The notes: generated from the letters alone by a model not told the origin. DNA of 56,538 nucleotides from Candidatus Niyogibacteria bacterium RIFCSPLOWO2_12_FULL_41_13 (GCA_001821615.1 MHMS01000006.1:1-56538); one strand, 5' to 3'; shown: positions 25,864-41,808, counted from the first letter of the stretch. Program-made: numbers and translations.

Positions 25864-27093
25864 TCAATATCCTTCAAGGCGATACGCCAGCTTGTGCTTT
25901 TTTATTTTTTCCAGCGCCTTCATTTCAATTTGCCGGATTCTTTCACGGGTTACGCCGAATTCTTTGCCGACTTCTTCCAAAGTGTAAGACACGCCGTCTT
26001 CCAAACCGAATCTCATCGCCAAAATTTTCTGCTCTCGGGGCGCGAGCTCGGAAATGATTTCTTTTATCTGGTCGCGCAAAAATTTGAGGCTTGTCGCTTG
26101 TTCGGGAGAAAGAGTTTTCTCGTCGGGCACGAATTCCCGAATCGTCACTTCTTCTTTTTCTTCCGGTTCTCCCACGGGCGTTTCCAAAGAAATAGTGTCT
26201 TGCGAAATTTTCTGCAGATGGCGGACTTTTTCAACCGGCAAATTCATTTCAGCCGCGATTTCCTGAATAAACGGGTCGCGGCCGAGTTCTTGCGTCAATC
26301 TCCTGACCGCTTGCTGGTATTTGCTTAAAATTTCAACAATATGAACCGGTAGCCGTATGATTTTTCCCTGGTCGGCCAACGCTCTGGTGATTGCCTGGCG
26401 TATCCACCAGGTGGCATAGGTTGAAAATTTAAAACCCCTTCTCCAGTCAAATTTTTCAACCGCCCGGAAAAGCCCCAGATTTCCTTCTTGAATCAAATCA
26501 AGCATAGTCAGATTGGAACTGCGTCCGAGATAACGTTTGGCGATTGAAACTACGAGTCGCAGATTCGCCAAAATCAGCTTGTTTTTCGCTTCTTCATCTC
26601 CTTGTTCAATCCTTTTTGATAAATCTTTTTCTTCCTGAAAAGTAAGAAGTTTAATTTTGCCGATTTCCCGCAAGTAGGATTGAATGGAATCCATGGAGAG
26701 ATGCTCCATAACATGTTCGGGTTCGGCGCTCGCGCCTGATTTTTTCTTTTCTTTTTCAAGTTCAAAGGGGCTTTTTTCTTCTATAATTTCAATATTAGAG
26801 CCCCTTATTTTTTCAAATGTTTCTTCCAAAAATAAAATATCTTCTTCAATGTTCGGAAAGTAAGTTAAAATTTCGCCGTGGGTCACAAATCCCTTTGCCC
26901 TGCCCTTTTTTATAAGCTCTTTCAATTTTTCTTCTTTTTTGCCGGCTTTCAGCGTTTTTTCGGCGACTGTTTCCAACTTGACCTTTTTTGGCCTTCCTCT
27001 TTTTTTGCCCGCCTGCCGGTAGGCATTGCCCGCCTGAATTTTTTTTGAAATTTTGGCGGATGCGGATGATTTTTTCGGTCTTCCTCTTTTCAT
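25864..27093 (-). CDS. rpoD: RNA polymerase sigma-70 factor with AT-hook-like N-terminus
   Basis: Regions 2-4 are conserved ([48 protein letters not shown]). Confidence 0.93.
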
Positions 27094-36501: not shown

Positions 36502-37587
36502 TTATACCTTTTTCGCTCTTCTTAAAAAGGCCGGCACTGATTCCCAATCATCGTCTGACTTTCCGGTTCTTGGCTGGATTTTCGGTTTATCTCCGCCCAA
36601 ATCAAGCGGCAGATTGAAAGTGTCCTGTTTTTGCGGAAACTTGGCGGCTATGACCGTTATTTTAATTTCCTCTTTTTTTAAATTCGGGTCGTGAAGCGCG
36701 CCAAAAATAATTTTCGCCTGGCGGTCAACCGATTCGGTGATTATTCTTGCGGCTTCTTGAATTTCCCACATTGTCAAATCAGGACCTCCCGCAACCGCGA
36801 AAAGCACTCCTTGCGCGCCGTGTATTGACAAATCAAGCAAAGGAGAATTAACGGCAAGCTGAGCGGCCGATTCGGCTCTTTTTTCTCCTTGAGCGACTCC
36901 GATTCCCATCAAAGCCGTTCCCGCGTCTTTCAAAACCGTTTTGACATCGGCGAAATCAATGTTAATAATGCCCGGAATGGTGATTATGTCGGAAATTCCC
37001 TGCACGGCTTGACGTAAAACTTCGTCGCAAACAACGAAAGCGCTGAGAAAAGTCGTGTCTTTCGCCACGATTGAAAGCAACTTTTCATTGGGAACGACGA
37101 TAACCGCGTCCACTTCTTCTTTTAATCTCGCGAGTCCTTCTTCTGCCAATCTCATTCTTTCCTGGCCTTCAAAATGAAACGGCCTTGTGACAACGCCGAT
37201 GGTTAAAGCCCCAATTTTGTTTTTTGCGATATTTGCCACCACCGGCGCCGCGCCCGTGCAAGTTCCTCCACCCATTCCGCCGGCGATAAAAATCATATCC
37301 GCGCCCTTGAGCGATTCTTCTATTTCTCCGGAATTTTCTTCAGCCGAAGCGCGGCCGATTTCCGGATTCATTCCGGCGCCAAGCCCCTTGGTCAGTTGTT
37401 TTCCGATTTGAACTTTTTTTGGCGCGAAACTGTGATGAAGGTCTTGAGCGTCGGTGTTTATGCCGATAAATTCAACTCCTTTGACTTTGGAGTGAATCAT
37501 ATGGTCAACGGCATTGCAACCCGAGCCGCCCACGCCAACCACTTTTATTTTTCCCGATATTTCAAAATCCGGTTTAATGTGAGCCAT
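36502..37587 (-). CDS. ftsZ: cell division protein FtsZ
   Basis: GGGTCTGAAPV tubulin signature and NTDAQ motif. Confidence 0.95.
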   Translation of the reverse strand: MAHIKPDFEISGKIKVVGVGGSGCNAVDHMIHSKVKGVEFIGINTDAQDLHHSFAPKKVQIGKQLTKGLGAGMNPEIGRASAEENSGEIEESLKGADMIFIAGGMGGGTCTGAAPVVANIAKNKIGALTIGVVTRPFHFEGQERMRLAEEGLARLKEEVDAVIVVPNEKLLSIVAKDTTFLSAFVVCDEVLRQAVQGISDIITIPGIINIDFADVKTVLKDAGTALMGIGVAQGEKRAESAAQLAVNSPLLDLSIHGAQGVLFAVAGGPDLTMWEIQEAARIITESVDRQAKIIFGALHDPNLKKEEIKITVIAAKFPQKQDTFNLPLDLGGDKPKIQPRTGKSDDDWESVPAFLRRAKKV

Positions 37588-37589
37588 AC

Positions 37590-37676
37590 TTAATAAAAAT
37601 TTCTAATTTCTAATATCTAATTTCTAAATAATCCAAAATTCAAAATCCCAAATCCTAAACTTTTCAATTCTAAACC
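37590..37676. repeat. 7-nt periodic AT-rich array upstream of ftsZ
   Basis: tttctaa tttctaa tatctaa tttctaa ataatcc aaaattc aaaatcc caaatcc. Partly duplicated at 39132-39181. Confidence 0.6.
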
Positions 37677-37696
37677 TTAATTAAAGAATAATCAAA

Positions 37697-38008
37697 TTAT
37701 TTCCTGTTTATTATTTTTGATTCAAGGAGAGCCACTCTTTTTGTTAAAATTTCAAATTCTTCAAAATCAACTTTTTTTCGCAAAGAGTTTTTAATTATTT
37801 CCATATTCATTTTTATCATCACTATGTCTTCGGTATTTTTTGCCACCATTTCGCGAAGGATAACGAGTTGTTCCTGAATTCCGCCGACAGATTCCGCCAA
37901 TAATTTCATATCAGACCTCAAATCCTCGGCCACTATGTCAAAATGCCGCCGAGTTTCCTCGCTCTGCTTTTTAATAAACGATTTCAATTTTTCCTCATTG
38001 ATTTCCAT
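37697..38008 (-). CDS. small coiled-coil hypothetical protein (inserted ORF)
   Basis: 103 aa. The ORF is bounded within 1 nt by 19-bp direct repeats (37677-37695, 38008-38026). Confidence 0.55.
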   Translation of the reverse strand: MEINEEKLKSFIKKQSEETRRHFDIVAEDLRSDMKLLAESVGGIQEQLVILREMVAKNTEDIVMIKMNMEIIKNSLRKKVDFEEFEILTKRVALLESKIINRK

Positions 38009-38047
38009 TAATCAAAGAATAAACAATGGTTTAAAAATAGTCAAAAC

Positions 38048-38076
38048 TTGACAAAATTTTGGGAATTTGCTATTCT
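38048..38076 (+). promoter_or_regulatory. sigma70-type promoter (cassette copy 1)
   Basis: TTGACA-17 nt-TATTCT, within a ~120-bp block duplicated at 39182-39303. Confidence 0.55.
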
Positions 38077-38131
38077 TTTTGCAGGATTTATTCTTTATTT
38101 TTAAGGTCTTTAACTAAAAGGAAGGTGGAAA

Positions 38132-38341
38132 ATGGAAATTTTTCTTATAGTAGGATTCTTTGGTGTTATGAGTTTTTTATGCGCCGCTATGGTCGGGGCT
38201 TCTTATCAACGCGGGTTCCCAATGGATAAAATGGGATTGATGCTGTGTCTAACCCTTTTCCTGATAATTAATGGACTCATGTTGATTGCGTTTGCAGAGT
38301 ACAGAAGGACATTAGGCGAGACGAAGGTGTTTGGGCAATAG
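38132..38341 (+). CDS. small two-TM membrane protein
   Basis: 69 aa with a GGAAGGTGG RBS. Confidence 0.5.
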   Translation: MEIFLIVGFFGVMSFLCAAMVGASYQRGFPMDKMGLMLCLTLFLIINGLMLIAFAEYRRTLGETKVFGQ

Positions 38342-38352
38342 AAGGAAATAAA

Positions 38353-38538
38353 ATGTATTGGGTGGTTTCCCAAACGAAAGTGGATCTTCCTGGAGAGGAA
38401 GAAACCAGTATAATAGCATTGATACACGCGGATAAAAGTAATAAAGTCATGGTCTTCAGGGTCCCCCAAGAATTGCCCCCTTTCTTTATAAAGGTACAGA
38501 TAGAAGGAGGGAAAATAGAATATCTCCCCTATCCTTAG
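38353..38538 (+). CDS. small hypothetical protein
   Basis: 61 aa with an AAGGAA RBS, 11 nt after the upstream stop. Confidence 0.4.
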   Translation: MYWVVSQTKVDLPGEEETSIIALIHADKSNKVMVFRVPQELPPFFIKVQIEGGKIEYLPYP

Positions 38539-38640
38539 CCAAGCTCCTAAATTTAAAGCCACACTCCCCTATATACATAGGCGAGTGTGGCTCTTTAATT
38601 TTATAGATAAAACTTGTGTTATAATTTATGTATGATATTT

Positions 38641-38907
38641 TTATTCTTTATATATTTTATCTCGGCGGCCAATATGGTGAATTGTAATTAATTTCTTTAA
38701 TATTTCTATTTCGTATATTATTCTCCAATCGCCAACTCGCAATTTAAAAAATCCTTTCCATTCGCCGCCAAGCGGAATTGGAATAATTTTATCAAAATTT
38801 TCCTTAAACCATTTTAATTTTTCCAAAATGCGCTGGCGAATTTGTTCGTCTAACTTGTCTAAATCTGCTTCGGCTTCCGAAGTAATGATAAACTTCCAGT
38901 CCGCCAT
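38641..38907 (-). CDS. RelE/ParE-family type II toxin
   Basis: 88 aa. ...LDKLDEQIRQRILEKL...FKLRVGDWRIIYEI...ITIHHIGRRDKIY is a typical RelE/ParE pattern. Confidence 0.8.
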   Translation of the reverse strand: MADWKFIITSEAEADLDKLDEQIRQRILEKLKWFKENFDKIIPIPLGGEWKGFFKLRVGDWRIIYEIEILKKLITIHHIGRRDKIYKE

Positions 38908-38912
38908 AAATT

Positions 38913-39122
38913 TTACAACTGGTATTTTGCAAAAATTTTTTCCAAGCTTCTATATCTGCCGATTTTTTTTGAATGAACTGATTTTTTAATTCTTTTTATC
39001 GCGTCTTTGCCTAAAACAAGACCGGCGTCGGGATCGCTCAGCAACTCTCGCATTGCCTCCGCAATTTGCCGGCGAATAATTGTATTTATGCGTCCTTCTC
39101 AATTTTTTATTAGAGTAGCCAT
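38913..39122 (-). pseudogene. putative antitoxin with in-frame TGA at codon 8
   Basis: ATG GCT ACT CTA ATA AAA AAT TGA GAA GGA... continues in frame for 61 more codons to a TAA 5 nt before the toxin ATG. Confidence 0.5.
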
Positions 39123-39221
39123 ATCCAAATAATGTCTAATTTCTAAATAATCCAAAATCCCGAACTTTTAAATTCTAAACCTTAATCAAAGAATAAACAA
39201 TGGTTTAAAAATAGTCAAAAC

Positions 39222-39250
39222 TTGACAGAATTTTGAGAATTTGCTATCCT
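39222..39250 (+). promoter_or_regulatory. sigma70-type promoter (cassette copy 2)
   Basis: TTGACA-17 nt-TATCCT. Paralogue of 38048-38076. Confidence 0.55.
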
Positions 39251-39309
39251 TTTTGCAGGATTTGTTATATTTTCTGGTCTTTAACTAAGAAACTAAGAGG
39301 AGGTTGGGA

Positions 39310-39579
39310 ATGAGATTGGGAAGAATACTTTCTGCTCTTTGTTTTATCTTGTGCGCTGTTCTTGGGGCTTACTGTTGTGTAGACATCATAATCGCGACGA
39401 ATGAGCCCTGGAATGAAGAACTTAGAGCTAATAGGGCGTTCTTAGCAGTCATGTACTTCATAATATCATGTATGATGTATATTATTTATTTATCTATGGA
39501 TACTGATGATTACTTGAAAAAAAGTGTACTAGGTAATTTCCCAAATCGAAAAAAGGCCACGTCCTGCACATGCAGATAA
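39310..39579 (+). CDS. small Cys-rich two-TM membrane protein
   Basis: 89 aa from the ATG at 39310. AAGAGGAGG RBS 6 nt upstream. Confidence 0.5.
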   Translation: MRLGRILSALCFILCAVLGAYCCVDIIIATNEPWNEELRANRAFLAVMYFIISCMMYIIYLSMDTDDYLKKSVLGNFPNRKKATSCTCR

Positions 39580-39612
39580 GCGTGGCTCTTTTAATTTTAT
39601 AGATAAAACTTG

Positions 39613-39621
39613 TGTTATAAT
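39613..39621 (+). promoter_or_regulatory. extended -10 promoter, leaderless-type, for recG
   Basis: TGTTATAAT-ttatgt-ATG, with 6 nt to the recG ATG at 39628. An identical block is duplicated at 38619-38636. Confidence 0.55.
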
Positions 39622-39627
39622 TTATGT

Positions 39628-41808
39628 ATGTTTCTCCAAGAACCTCTTGAAAAATATCTTTATCTGAACAAAAAACAAAAATTCGTTCTTCAAAAAGCCG
39701 GATTTAATAAAGTTGAGGATTTGCTCCGCCATTTTCCGAACGACTATAAAAAATTCGTTTCGCTGAAAAAAATACGGGAATTGAAACCGGATGAAGAAGC
39801 GAGAATAGGGGCGAAAATTTTATCAAGCAAACTCAAGAGAAGCTGGAAAAAAAGAATTCCGGTTGTTGAATTTTTGGTTCAGGATGAAAGCGGAATTCTG
39901 CGGATTACTTGGTTCAATCAGCCGTATTTGGCAAAAACATTAAAACAAGGAGAATTTTATTATTTCACCGGAAAAATTTATCGCGACAAATCCGGTTCAT
40001 TGATGATAAATCCCGTCTGGGCGCTTTCCGCCGATAGGCAAGAAAAAGAAATTGAGGAAATTTCCAACGAAGAAAAATTTTATCCGGTTTATCCTGAAAT
40101 TTACGGATTATCCAGCCGATGGATTGCCGAAAAAATCAAAAAACTGCTCTTGGAAATCAAAGATATTGATTTGCCCGAAATTTTGCCGAAATTCATCCTT
40201 CAAAAATATCATCTTCCGGATTTTAAAACCAGCGTTTTCGCGGCTCATCAGCCGAAAAATCCGAAACATTTTGAAGCCGTCAAAAAACGCTTTTCTTTTG
40301 AAGAAATTTTTTTATTGCAATTGTCGCGGCTTAAAGAAAAAATCTCCCGCAAAAAACTTCCGGCCTTTGAAATGAAAATCAGCCGGAAAGAAATAAATTC
40401 ATTCATTAAGTTTTTTGATTTTGAACTGACAAACGCTCAAAAAAAAGCCGTTAAAACGCTCTTGGACGACCTAAAAAAACCGGAATCAATGACAAGATTG
40501 CTTGAAGGAGATGTTGGCTCCGGAAAAACGGCGGTTGCGATTATTATTTCTTACGCCGCGCTAAAATCCGGTTATCAAATCGCTTATATGGCGCCGACCG
40601 AAGTTTTGGCCCGCCAAATTTACGAAGAATTTATAAAATTTTTAAAACCCTTCCGCGCCAAAATCGGACTCCTTACTTCTTCTCAAAGCCGAAAATATCC
40701 GTCAAAAGCTTTTCCAAACAAAGATACGCAAATTTCAAAAAATCAGCTGTTGAAATGGGTTTTAGGCGGCGAAATTCCCGTTTTAATAGGAACTCACAGT
40801 TTAACCTATGAAAAAGTGAAATTTAACAAGCTTGGGCTTGTCATTATAGACGAACAGCACCGTTTCGGAATCAAACAAAGAGGGCTTTTAGCAAAAAAAA
40901 CTTCAAAAGAATTGCCCTCCATTCCCCATCTTCTTTCAATGACCGCCACGCCGATTCCAAGAACATTGGCGCTTACCATTTACGGCGACCTTGATTTGAC
41001 ATTGCTTGATGAAATGCCCCCAGGCAGAAAAAAAATCAAAACCATAATCGTGCCGCCGGAACAGAGAGAAAGAGCCTATGAGATGATGAGAGAAGAAATA
41101 AAAAACGGAAGGCAAGCGTATGTGGTCTGTCCGAGAATAGAACAAAAATCGCAAATCGCAAAGCGCAAAGCGCAAAGCGCAAAATTTGAAGAAAAACTTC
41201 ATCAAGAACCGGAGGAAGAAATAAAAGCGGTAAAGAGCGAATATAAAAGATTGAGCGAGAAAATTTTTCCGGAATTAAAACTTGGGATTTTACACGGCCG
41301 GCTTTTGCCAAAAGAAAAAGAAGAAGTCATAAAAAAATTTAAAAAAGGCGAAATTCAGATTTTAACAAGCACTTCGGTTATTGAAGTGGGCATAAATATC
41401 CCGAATGCCACAATGATTTTAATAGAAGGCGCGGAAAGATTCGGTTTAGCGCAATTACACCAATTAAGAGGCCGGGTCTTGAGAAGCGTCTATCAGCCGT
41501 ATTGCTTTATTTTCACCGAACATTCATCGCAAAAAATACTGGCTCGCTTAAACGCCTTGACTAAATCGCAAAACGGATTTGAACTCGCGGAATACGATTT
41601 AAAATTCCGCGGTCCCGGGGAACTGACCGGCGCAAAACAATGGGGAATTTCTGATATCGGAATGCTCGGCCTTAAAAACCTCAAAATGGTTGAAGCGGCG
41701 AGAACCGAAGCCGAAGAACTCCTGCGAGAAGATTTTGAACTCAAAAATTATCCGTTGTTAAAGGAAACAATTTCAAAATTATCGCGTTCCCCCGTCCATT
41801 TAGAATAA
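39628..41808 (+). CDS. recG: ATP-dependent DNA helicase RecG
   Basis: Wedge/OB N-terminus, GDVGSGKT Walker A, DEQHRFG, and helicase C motifs. The start is taken at MFLQEPLEKY. Confidence 0.9.
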   Translation: MFLQEPLEKYLYLNKKQKFVLQKAGFNKVEDLLRHFPNDYKKFVSLKKIRELKPDEEARIGAKILSSKLKRSWKKRIPVVEFLVQDESGILRITWFNQPYLAKTLKQGEFYYFTGKIYRDKSGSLMINPVWALSADRQEKEIEEISNEEKFYPVYPEIYGLSSRWIAEKIKKLLLEIKDIDLPEILPKFILQKYHLPDFKTSVFAAHQPKNPKHFEAVKKRFSFEEIFLLQLSRLKEKISRKKLPAFEMKISRKEINSFIKFFDFELTNAQKKAVKTLLDDLKKPESMTRLLEGDVGSGKTAVAIIISYAALKSGYQIAYMAPTEVLARQIYEEFIKFLKPFRAKIGLLTSSQSRKYPSKAFPNKDTQISKNQLLKWVLGGEIPVLIGTHSLTYEKVKFNKLGLVIIDEQHRFGIKQRGLLAKKTSKELPSIPHLLSMTATPIPRTLALTIYGDLDLTLLDEMPPGRKKIKTIIVPPEQRERAYEMMREEIKNGRQAYVVCPRIEQKSQIAKRKAQSAKFEEKLHQEPEEEIKAVKSEYKRLSEKIFPELKLGILHGRLLPKEKEEVIKKFKKGEIQILTSTSVIEVGINIPNATMILIEGAERFGLAQLHQLRGRVLRSVYQPYCFIFTEHSSQKILARLNALTKSQNGFELAEYDLKFRGPGELTGAKQWGISDIGMLGLKNLKMVEAARTEAEELLREDFELKNYPLLKETISKLSRSPVHLE
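41149..41183. repeat. 5 x heptamer tandem repeat (NCGCAAA) inside recG
   Basis: tcgcaaa tcgcaaa gcgcaaa gcgcaaa gcgcaaa. Confidence 0.8.

What the first reader, a model, noticed from the sequence alone, without database searches (positions are those of the whole stretch)
37677..38026. Insertion consisting of essentially one ORF, flanked by 19-bp direct repeats, with the uninterrupted site present as a paralogue in the same window
Seen in the sequence:
- TTAATTAAAGAATAATCAA (37677-37695) and TTAATCAAAGAATAAACAA (38008-38026) match at 17/19 positions. They bracket 312 nt that correspond, within 1 nt, to the 103-codon ORF 37697..38008.
- At 39150-39230 the same flanking sequences (...ATTCTAAACC|TTAATCAAAGAATAAACAA|TGGTTTAAAAATAG...) are contiguous, with a single copy of the 19-mer.
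- The insert has no TIR, promoter or terminator of its own. It sits in the ftsZ upstream region in the same orientation as ftsZ.

Inference: a gene-sized insertion occurred with a long target duplication. This is unlike classical IS behaviour. It may be a site-specific or recombination-templated event.
Basis: seen in the sequence. Interest (0 to 1): 0.6.

Follow-up and report, generated by a model that had tools for sequence, protein, structure and literature searches.

The report
One-gene insertion duplicating ftsZ promoter
A small accessory gene with no mobility gene of its own was inserted in front of the cell-division gene ftsZ of a tiny groundwater bacterium, copying 19 bases of the promoter region, and its relatives in other such bacteria are unusually often bracketed by duplicated target DNA too, a known but unexplained way for bacteria to gain genes.

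Summary
TTAATTAAAGAATAATCAA (37677-37695) and TTAATCAAAGAATAAACAA (38008-38026) match at 17/19 positions and bracket exactly 312 nt, the 103-codon minus-strand ORF shifted by 1 nt. At 39182-39200 a single 19-mer sits between the same two flanks. In the 562-kb genome the 19-mer occurs only at these three places.

The cargo belongs to a sporadic family of coiled-coil proteins of unknown function (conserved MEINEKKLK start; 49 of 401 genomes of the class). It is under purifying selection (pN/pS 0.13).

The 19-mer holds the -10 box of a resident minus-strand promoter. That box now lies 7 nt before the ORF's ATG, so the mRNA is probably leaderless. The 19-mer also holds the -35 box of a second promoter, which the other copy keeps in front of ftsZ.

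Family members elsewhere are flanked by unrelated direct repeats of 22-150 nt in 8 of 31 loci, against 1.5-4% of control genes. The same genome has other repeat-flanked one-gene inserts.

Best reading: "insertion with long target duplication" (Nobusato 2000; Furuta 2010), without a recombinase and probably after DNA uptake (ComEC present, Ku absent). It is a new member of a known, mechanistically unexplained kind. No orthologous empty site was found, and no read data were available.

The parts
37677..37695 (.). DR1, the left copy of the 19-bp duplication (TTAATTAAAGAATAATCAA). On the minus strand it supplies the -35 box TTGATT of promoter P2 in front of ftsZ.
   Evidence: The promoter scan gives TTGATT-17-TAGAAT at 37695->37667.
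37697..38008 (-). ORF103, a 103-aa coiled-coil protein of the MEINEKKLK family. It is the only cargo of the insert (insert proper 37696-38007).
   Evidence: conserved N-terminus fixes the ATG at 38008; two long helices, pLDDT 88.6; pN/pS 0.13 against the sister lineage.
38008..38026 (.). DR2, the right copy of the 19-bp duplication (TTAATCAAAGAATAAACAA). On the minus strand it contains the -10 box TATTCT of promoter P1, and its last base is the A of the ORF103 ATG.
38016..38044 (-). Promoter-like site P1 (TTGACT-17-TATTCT), 7 nt upstream of the ORF103 ATG. The -35 box lies outside the duplication and the -10 box inside it.
   Evidence: The same site is present in the uninterrupted copy at 39218->39190.
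37667..37695 (-). Promoter-like site P2 (TTGATT-17-TAGAAT) facing ftsZ.
39182..39200 (.). Single 19-mer at the uninterrupted paralogous site, the 'empty site' inside block B.
   Evidence: It is also uninterrupted in the sister lineage.
36502..37587 (-). ftsZ, the gene downstream of the insert on the same strand.
   Evidence: Pfam Tubulin and FtsZ_C on the identical protein.
37595..38634 (.). Block A, a copy of the ftsZ-recG intergenic module: left IGR, divergent promoters, 5'UTR frame, ORF69 plus ORF61, terminator, and a recG-type promoter with ATG. It carries the ORF103 insert.
38641..39122 (-). ParE toxin (38641-38907) and antitoxin (38913-39122) operon lying between blocks A and B. This is a second, larger insert bracketed by duplicated target.
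   Evidence: (ParE_toxin, 2.5e-9).
39128..39630 (.). Block B, the second copy of the module. It lacks ORF103, carries a different small membrane ORF (39310-39579), and ends at the recG ATG.

Best explanation
ORF103 is a horizontally acquired accessory gene. It entered the divergent promoter region upstream of ftsZ as an almost exactly ORF-sized DNA piece (ATG to 1 nt past the stop), and 19 bp of the target were duplicated in the process. This is the event type called 'insertion with long target duplication'.

Shown:
- The two 19-mers, the exact ORF-sized insert, and the uninterrupted paralogous site.
- The 19-mer is unique to this locus in the genome.
- The insert carries no transposase, integrase, TIR, tRNA or hairpin.
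- The gene family is sporadic, sits in unrelated contexts, and is repeatedly flanked by unrelated duplications of neighbouring promoter, terminator or gene-end sequence.

Inferred:
- The event was not site-specific. It was an illegitimate insertion into staggered breaks, or a template switch during repair or replication, of DNA taken up from outside. ComEC is present and Ku is absent.
- The insert survived because the family is typically expressed from a -10 box only 6-9 nt before the ATG, that is, as a leaderless mRNA. Landing 7 nt after the resident -10 box (TTGACT-17-TATTCT) gives immediate expression. The duplicated copy keeps a -35 box (TTGATT-17-TAGAAT) for ftsZ, which is probably also reached by read-through, since no terminator intervenes.
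- Selection for intact neighbours therefore enriches insertions that duplicate regulatory signals.

The event is old. It predates the split from a sister lineage (ORF103 pS 0.185) and is fixed in the species.
For: - Geometry and statistics of the repeats.
- The empty-site paralogue at 39182-39200 has both flanks contiguous. It is also uninterrupted in the sister lineage.
- The cargo is single-copy in the genome.
- Homologues occur in 9 of 61 and 49 of 401 genomes of the class. They lie in unrelated neighbourhoods and never next to ftsZ.
- The conserved MEINEKKLK start fixes the ATG at the junction.
- Several members have a promoter -10 box 6-9 nt before the ATG. The same spacing occurs here.
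- Flanking direct repeats occur in family loci:
  - L194: 39+ nt, the promoter plus first codons of the next gene.
  - L196: 22 nt, the 3' end and stop of the upstream gene.
  - L012: 139 nt, the 5' part of the next gene.
  - L214: 37 nt, a terminator hairpin unique to that locus.
  - L242: 28 nt, overlapping the stop codon.
  - L013 and L202: present but ambiguous.
  - Sources.
- Enrichment: 8/31 vs 10/661 (p = 2e-7). The conservative count is 6/31, with p = 3e-5, 2e-3 and 3e-3 against three different controls.
- The same genome holds other one-gene inserts with 30-55-nt duplications, and the ParE operon lies between duplicated blocks.
- ComEC is present and Ku is absent. The only two tyrosine-recombinase hits are on other contigs.
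- No Rfam family or tRNA lies in or beside these inserts.
- This kind of event is documented for R-M genes, mostly in naturally competent species (PMC2853133).
Against: - No orthologous empty site was found. The nearest ftsZ relatives are only 62-67% identical and have different neighbourhoods. All same-species contigs and the sister lineage carry the insert. The direction of the event (insertion in A versus loss from B) therefore rests on the paralogous copy and on the family pattern.
- 19 bp is below the 30-bp threshold used in the literature to define long target duplications.
- At most 1-2 nt of microhomology is visible at the junctions, so the repair or template-switch step has no direct support.
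- The promoters are consensus matches only. No transcript data were available.
- Two of the repeat-flanked family loci may be chance placements between dispersed repeats. L202's repeat has a third copy. For L013, a 1-mismatch match to a 4-nt-loop form of the hairpin motif lies on another contig of G039, but that pattern (4-nt loop; L013's loop is 3 nt) did not re-find L013's own copies, so its copy number is untested.
- Three quarters of family loci show no flanking repeat.
Confidence: 0.68

Rival explanations
1. The timing is reversed. ORF103 with its two 19-mers was already present when the intergenic module was duplicated, and block B later lost the gene by recombination or slippage between the 19-bp repeats, leaving one copy. 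The 19-mers would still originate from an older insertion.
For: The single 19-mer of block B is identical to DR2 (0/19) although the adjoining flanks differ by 8-12%. Deletion between short direct repeats is a common process (general knowledge). Block B lacks the gene in the sister lineage too, so the loss would be old.
Against: This needs one more event than insertion after the duplication. It does not explain where the repeats came from. 0/19 and 2/19 differences are both compatible with the roughly 10% flank divergence. Other family members show insertion-type duplications of neighbouring gene ends.
Confidence: 0.15
2. The 19-mers are attL/attR of a degenerate site-specific element (CIME-like or cassette-like). 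The element would have integrated as a circle by a tyrosine recombinase acting in trans.
For: Direct repeats flanking a gene-only insert are also what site-specific integration leaves. The genome encodes at least one Xer-like tyrosine recombinase. The cargo is a promoterless ORF, as in integron cassettes.
Against: The 19-mer occurs nowhere else in the genome. It has no dyad symmetry and no attC-like structure, since the ORF fills the whole insert. No tRNA is present. Repeats around other family members are unrelated in sequence and range from 22 to 150 nt. No recombinase gene lies near any of the loci inspected.
Confidence: 0.08
3. No insertion happened. The two 19-mers resemble each other because both are promoter sequence (convergence or local duplication of a regulatory element), and ORF103 is an old resident of the ftsZ leader, for example a Zap-like division factor.
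For: The 19-mer overlaps a -10 box and a -35 box. The protein is a coiled coil placed directly before ftsZ and probably co-transcribed with it.
Against: 17 of 19 identical positions, including non-consensus ones, abut the ORF to the base on both sides. The uninterrupted copy exists. Homologues are never next to ftsZ in 160 ftsZ loci of related bacteria. Homologues are patchy, in about 12% of genomes.
Confidence: 0.04

Closest known systems
Insertion with long target duplication of restriction-modification genes (Nobusato et al. 2000, Gene; Furuta, Abe & Kobayashi 2010, NAR, PMC2853133)
   Same: A gene unit without a transposase, integrase or TIR is flanked by direct repeats that correspond to one copy at the uninterrupted site. 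The repeat is unique in the genome. Repeat length and sequence vary between events. The hosts have DNA-uptake machinery. The mechanism is unknown.
   Different: The cargo is a 103-aa coiled-coil gene of unknown function, not an R-M system. The duplication is 19 bp, below their 30-bp screen (relatives here have 22-150 nt). The insert is ORF-only and uses a resident promoter. The host is a Patescibacteria genome. The empty site is a paralogue, not an orthologue.
CIMEs / microCIMEs (cis-mobilizable elements: integrative elements that kept attL/attR but lost their integrase). From memory and earlier notes of this scan; not checked in the literature here.
   Same: A small cargo without a recombinase lies between direct repeats next to a conserved gene.
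   Different: CIME repeats are att sites of a defined integrase family at fixed targets (3' ends of rpsI, fda, rpmG, or tRNAs). Here the repeats differ from locus to locus, and no cognate integrase or conserved core is seen.
IS1634-family insertion sequences with long, variable target duplications (from memory; cited in PMC2853133 as the Mycoplasma transposon)
   Same: The target duplications are variable and unusually long.
   Different: IS1634 elements carry a transposase and terminal inverted repeats. This insert has neither.
Phage morons and integron gene cassettes
   Same: A single accessory gene is slotted between resident genes. As in an integron cassette, the ORF has no promoter and is read from a resident one.
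   Different: Morons bring their own promoter and terminator and sit in prophages. The family is absent from phage collections. Integron cassettes end in an attC hairpin and sit next to intI, and neither is present.
GIY-YIG mini-elements and MITEs that dock on start codons in this same genome (earlier notes e1-3316392, e1-3316383)
   Same: Same genome; small inserts placed at gene starts.
   Different: Those elements have TIRs, a nuclease gene and a short fixed target. The ORF103 insert has no TIR, no nuclease and a 19-bp duplication.

Membership tests
Insertion with long target duplication (Nobusato 2000; Furuta 2010) | The direct repeats flanking the insert align to a single copy at an uninterrupted site, with both flanks contiguous. 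| tested here: met
   39182-39200 with flanks D2 and D1. This holds in the sister lineage too. The site is a paralogue, not an orthologous empty site.
Insertion with long target duplication (Nobusato 2000; Furuta 2010) | No mobility gene or other mobile-element structure lies inside the insert. | tested here: met
   The insert is one 103-aa ORF with no Pfam, PHROG or PADLOC family. It has no TIR and no tRNA or Rfam hit.
Insertion with long target duplication (Nobusato 2000; Furuta 2010) | The repeat is unique in the genome, not a dispersed repeat. | tested here: met
   Only three copies at up to 2 mismatches in 562 kb, all at this locus.
Insertion with long target duplication (Nobusato 2000; Furuta 2010) | The target duplication is longer than 30 bp (operational threshold of PMC2853133). 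| tested here: not met
   19 bp here. Relatives have 22, 28, 37, 39+ and 139 nt.
Insertion with long target duplication (Nobusato 2000; Furuta 2010) | Presence/absence polymorphism between closely related genomes. | tested here: not met
   All same-species contigs and the sister lineage carry the insert. No closer relatives are available. The read-level test was not possible.
Classical IS / transposon / MITE | Terminal inverted repeats, a transposase (for autonomous elements), and a short target duplication of fixed length. | tested here: not met
   No inverted repeat at the insert ends. No transposase domain. Duplication lengths vary from 19 to 150 nt across the family.
Integron gene cassette | An attC recombination site at the 3' end of the cassette and an adjacent intI/attI. 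| tested here: not met
   Only 1 nt lies between the stop codon and DR1. The only tyrosine-recombinase hits are on contigs C18 and C13.
Site-specific integrative element / CIME | A conserved att core shared by the elements of the family, typically at a tRNA or a fixed gene 3' end, with a cognate integrase. | tested here: not met
   The repeats of eight family loci are unrelated in sequence. No tRNA is present. No integrase is nearby.
Zap-type FtsZ-associated coiled-coil proteins | Conserved genetic linkage or sequence homology to ZapA/ZapB-type families. | tested here: not met
   No Pfam hit above threshold. No homologue lies within 5 kb of ftsZ in 160 related loci.

The most novel reading that the evidence does not exclude
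Patescibacteria, and perhaps other ultra-small competent cells, may have a general route of gene gain that needs no recombinase. Incoming DNA, down to a bare leaderless ORF, would be stitched into intergenic signals with duplication of 20-150+ bp of the target, so that promoters, terminators and gene ends of the tightly packed neighbours are preserved. On this reading the MEINEKKLK coiled-coil family is a frequent passenger, or possibly an active promoter, of this route. The ParE operon between blocks A and B, and the swapping cargo inside the conserved promoter/terminator frames of this locus, would be products of the same process.
Probability: 0.3. Interest if true: 0.75.

Novelty: new member of a known kind. 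Interest (0 to 1): 0.5.

Why it matters
Insertion with long target duplication has been known since 2000, almost only for restriction-modification genes, and its mechanism is still unknown. This locus shows the same footprint for a different cargo in a 0.56-Mb Patescibacteria genome.

It adds two points. First, a whole small-gene family carries such footprints far more often than control genes, which gives a defined set of events for working out junction rules. Second, what gets duplicated is regulatory sequence (a promoter here; promoters, terminators and gene ends elsewhere). That explains how a genome with almost no spare DNA can accept a gene in front of an essential gene such as ftsZ without harm.

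It also corrects the annotation. Gene callers start this ORF at an internal TTG (96 aa), whereas the family-conserved start is the ATG at the junction.

Tried and rejected
- Orthologous empty site: ftsZ-anchored scans of genome contigs and metagenome contigs gave only 51-67% identical relatives. None had ORF103, recG or the intergenic module nearby.
- Empty site for the L012 insert in its family: a joined-flank search found none, only a paralogue of the target gene.
- Function of ORF103: Pfam, PHROGs, PADLOC and PDB sequence searches gave only generic coiled-coil noise. AlphaFold gives two long helices, so no fold search was run.
- Phage origin: no relatives in IMG/VR or in GenBank phages.
- Common-motif explanation for the 19-mer: rejected.
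- The left part of the intergenic region does contain a genome-wide 7-nt periodic leader motif, but this does not include the 19-mer.
- ORF69 and ORF89 as diverged duplicates: no protein or DNA similarity, so simple duplication and divergence of blocks A and B is rejected.
- RNA families or tRNAs as integration targets: none found.
- My pattern for the L013 hairpin used a 4-nt loop where the real loop is 3 nt. It therefore missed the locus's own copies and matched only a different site on another contig of G039, at 1 mismatch. L013 is left as ambiguous.

Full report
**1. Observation**

The sequence and the repeat search show TTAATTAAAGAATAATCAA at 37677-37695 and TTAATCAAAGAATAAACAA at 38008-38026, identical at 17 of 19 positions.
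- The 312 nt between them (37696-38007) coincide, shifted by one base, with the minus-strand ORF 37697..38008 (103 codons plus stop).
- A third copy, identical to the second, lies at 39182-39200. There the sequence to its left matches the left flank of the first copy (37644-37695 vs 39149-39200, 88%). The sequence to its right matches the right flank of the second copy (38008-38099 vs 39182-39273, 92%). This is an uninterrupted paralogous site.
- With up to 3 mismatches the window holds 4 matches against 0.12 expected.
- In the whole 562-kb assembly (26 contigs, 95.7% complete) only these three copies exist at up to 2 mismatches.
- ftsZ (36502-37587) lies on the minus strand, like the ORF.

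**2. The surroundings**

The 19-mer is part of a larger duplication.
- Block A (about 37595-38634) and block B (about 39128-39630) share several segments:
  - the left intergenic part;
  - a divergent promoter region plus 5'UTR (99/107 identical);
  - a 30-nt island;
  - a terminator plus a 41-nt stretch that is 100% identical and ends in the recG ATG.
- Between the blocks lies a minus-strand ParE toxin/antitoxin operon. It starts 5-7 nt from the edge of block B and ends 6 nt from the edge of block A.
- The small ORFs inside the two blocks (ORF69 plus ORF61 against ORF89) show no protein or DNA similarity (z = 0.9). The blocks are therefore conserved regulatory frames holding unrelated cargo.

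**3. What the 19-mer is**

On the minus strand the scan finds two promoter-like sites.
- TTGACT-17-TATTCT lies at 38044->38016 and again at 39218->39190. Its -10 box is inside the 19-mer, and in block A it ends 7 nt before the ORF103 ATG.
- TTGATT-17-TAGAAT lies at 37695->37667. Its -35 box is inside the other copy of the 19-mer and faces ftsZ.
- No terminator-like hairpin separates ORF103 from ftsZ.
- The duplication therefore leaves a -10 box at leaderless distance in front of the incoming ORF and a -35 box in front of ftsZ.
- These are consensus matches only.

**4. The cargo**

- ORF103 is single-copy in the genome.
- It matches no Pfam, PHROG, PADLOC or PDB family beyond coiled-coil noise.
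- It is predicted as two long helices (pLDDT 88.6).
- It has 33 relatives in the protein collection. It occurs in 9 of 61 and 49 of 401 genomes of the same class. At least one copy sits in a non-Patescibacteria context, next to a TonB-dependent receptor gene.
- Neighbourhoods are unrelated to each other, and none is near ftsZ. None of 160 ftsZ loci of related bacteria has a homologue within 5 kb.
- No relatives were found in viral collections.
- The family alignment has a strongly conserved N-terminus, MEINEKKLK. This fixes the start at the ATG whose A is the last base of the 19-mer. The 96-aa versions called from an internal TTG in public assemblies are mis-calls.
- In several relatives a good -10 box lies 6-9 nt before the ATG, so leaderless expression looks like a family trait.

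**5. Age and fixation**

- Four same-species contigs are 99.97% identical to the window over 3.3 kb. They differ only at 39101, where the window has a TGA in antitoxin codon 8.
- ORF103 is seen on about as many contigs as its neighbours, so no empty allele is visible in the population.
- Short contigs of a sister lineage (ORF103 94% identical in protein; 17/312 nt differences; pS 0.185; pN/pS 0.13) carry the same insert with identical DR1 and DR2, the same toxin operon and both blocks.
- The gene is therefore functional, and the insertion predates that split.
- In the sister lineage both cargo slots hold something else:
  - Block A holds a 27-aa hydrophobic ORF plus an ORF61 remnant.
  - Block B holds a 156-aa pentapeptide-repeat gene with a different recG leader.
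  - The 108-nt ftsZ leader is 100% identical between the lineages.

**6.

For each family locus I scored the best ungapped direct repeat between the 200 nt before the start codon and the 200 nt after the stop codon.

Strong repeats were found in these loci:

| Locus | Repeat | What is duplicated |
|---|---|---|
| L194 | 39 nt, continuing into the first ~10 codons | Promoter and start of the next gene; gives the family ORF a chimeric N-terminus |
| L196 | 22 nt | Last codons and stop of the upstream gene, ahead of its terminator |
| L012 | 139 nt | Ribosome-binding site and first ~45 codons of the next gene; leaves a truncated upstream copy |
| L214 | 37 nt | The rpsJ terminator hairpin; only these two copies in that genome |
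| L242 | 28 nt | Repeat overlapping the stop codon |
| L013 | about 50 nt | Hairpin plus -10 box |
| L202 | 150 nt, 98.7% identical | Not identified |

- L202's repeat has a third copy 2.7 kb away. For L013, a 1-mismatch match to a 4-nt-loop form of the hairpin motif lies on another contig of G039, but that pattern had the wrong loop length and did not re-find L013's own copies, so L013's copy number is untested. I count both as ambiguous.
- Including the window, 8 of 31 loci (conservatively 6 of 31) reach the score of the window's repeat.
- The controls are much lower:
  - 10 of 661 genes in ftsZ-anchored loci of related bacteria.
  - 3 of 114 neighbouring genes in the same family loci.
  - 25 of 635 genes in the window's own genome, which includes MITE- and REP-flanked genes.
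- Fisher tests give p = 2e-7 for all eight. For the conservative count they give p = 3e-5, 3e-3 and 2e-3 against those three controls.
- The repeats are unrelated in sequence, differ in length, and consist of whatever lay at the target. The downstream repeat usually starts 1-24 nt after the stop codon.
- No tRNA or Rfam family is involved.

**7. Is this special to the family?**

Probably not entirely. The window's own genome has other one-gene inserts with the same footprint:
- An MNT-HEPN gene at C23:11330-12172 between two copies of the last 55 nt of the convergent neighbour.
- An ArsR-like gene at C2:4336-4608 (30 nt).
- A 76-aa gene at C5:5720-5950 (47 nt).
- The ParE operon between blocks A and B.

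Earlier notes of this scan report the same pattern for other cargo in other Patescibacteria and in a DPANN archaeon. I treat those notes as leads, not as evidence.

The genome encodes ComEC but no Ku. Its only two tyrosine-recombinase hits are on other contigs.

**8. Mechanism**

- Shown: an ORF-sized insert, a 19-bp duplication of unique target sequence, no mobility functions, and a family-wide excess of variable target duplications.
- Inferred: a non-site-specific event in which taken-up DNA was joined into staggered breaks, or copied in by template switching during repair or replication. This was followed by selection for inserts that are expressed and leave neighbours intact.
- Junction microhomology is at most 1-2 nt, so the molecular step remains open.
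- One of the two changes in DR1 turns TTGTTT into TTGATT, a better -35 box. This may be a later adjustment, which is speculation.

**9. Comparison with known systems**

- The closest description is 'insertion with long target duplication', reported for R-M genes in Helicobacter and later in several mostly competent bacteria (PMC2853133). That work also found significantly more flanking repeats than for average genes and left the mechanism unexplained.
- This case meets the structural criteria: a single copy at the uninterrupted site, no mobile-element features, and a unique repeat.
- It misses the 30-bp operational threshold, and it lacks an orthologous empty site.
- It is not an IS or MITE, an integron cassette, a CIME-type element or a moron. 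The defining features of each were tested and not met (see the membership table).

**10. Verdict**

It is a new member of a known but poorly understood kind. The useful additions are the family-level enrichment and the promoter-capture logic for a leaderless ORF in front of ftsZ. Confidence in the main reading is about 0.68. The main uncertainty is the order of events (insertion into A against loss from B) and the unknown enzymology.

Noticed in passing
window 39099-39101 (minus strand codon 8 of the antitoxin, 38913-39122): The window has TGA where four other same-species contigs (L021-L024) have GGA. This is the only difference in 3.3 kb. The antitoxin of the ParE pair is therefore truncated, or must restart at the ATG at 39053, in this assembly.
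   Followed up: partly
window 38009-38634 and 39182-39630; L224 1-377; L227 1-860: Conserved promoter/5'UTR and terminator frames (85-93% identical) hold unrelated small ORFs: ORF69 plus ORF61 against ORF89. In a sister lineage the same frames hold a 27-aa hydrophobic ORF and a 156-aa pentapeptide-repeat gene. Cargo turns over much faster than the frames, ORF103 or the toxin operon.
   Followed up: partly
window 37590-37640 and 39128-39160; G000 C14:35489-35516, C14:6892-6918, C14:21019-21044, C22:15814-15839 and others: Arrays of a 7-nt unit (TTAGAAA/TTAGGAA) lie directly upstream of the start codons of many genes: ftsZ, and L27-like, MreB-like and topoisomerase I-like genes. This looks like a genome-wide leader motif with no obvious Shine-Dalgarno character.
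   Followed up: partly
G000 C9:5100-5930: The ribosomal protein L5 gene (C9:5247-5771) is flanked on both sides by a ~122-nt element that contains these 7-nt arrays. Related copies lie on C4 near 26750-26880.
   Followed up: no
G000 C8:3023-3718, C14:34336-35031, C25:2522-3196: Three 224-231-aa genes with IS200/RAYT-like Y1 motifs (HYH) are each flanked by direct copies of their own 21-nt hairpin sequence, as in REP/RAYT pairs.
   Followed up: no
G000 C23:11228-12233, C2:4257-4642, C5:5563-6013: Three other one-gene inserts in the same genome lie between direct repeats. An MNT-HEPN gene has 55-nt repeats that duplicate the 3' end of the convergent dehydrogenase-like gene. An ArsR-like HTH gene has 30-nt repeats. 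A 76-aa gene has 47-nt repeats.
   Followed up: partly
L194 1471-1889: A family member and the next gene share the promoter and the first ~10 codons (MAEETKKEF). The inserted ORF has therefore acquired the N-terminus of its target instead of the family's MEINEKKLK.
   Followed up: partly
window 37588-37695 vs L224: The 108-nt ftsZ leader, including DR1, is 100% identical between the window and the sister lineage. The adjacent ORF103 has 18.5% synonymous divergence. This points to strong constraint or recent exchange of the ftsZ leader.
   Followed up: no
window 37988-38008: Public gene calls start ORF103 at an internal TTG (96 aa) behind a GAGGA. The family-conserved start is the ATG at 38008 (103 aa).
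   Followed up: yes
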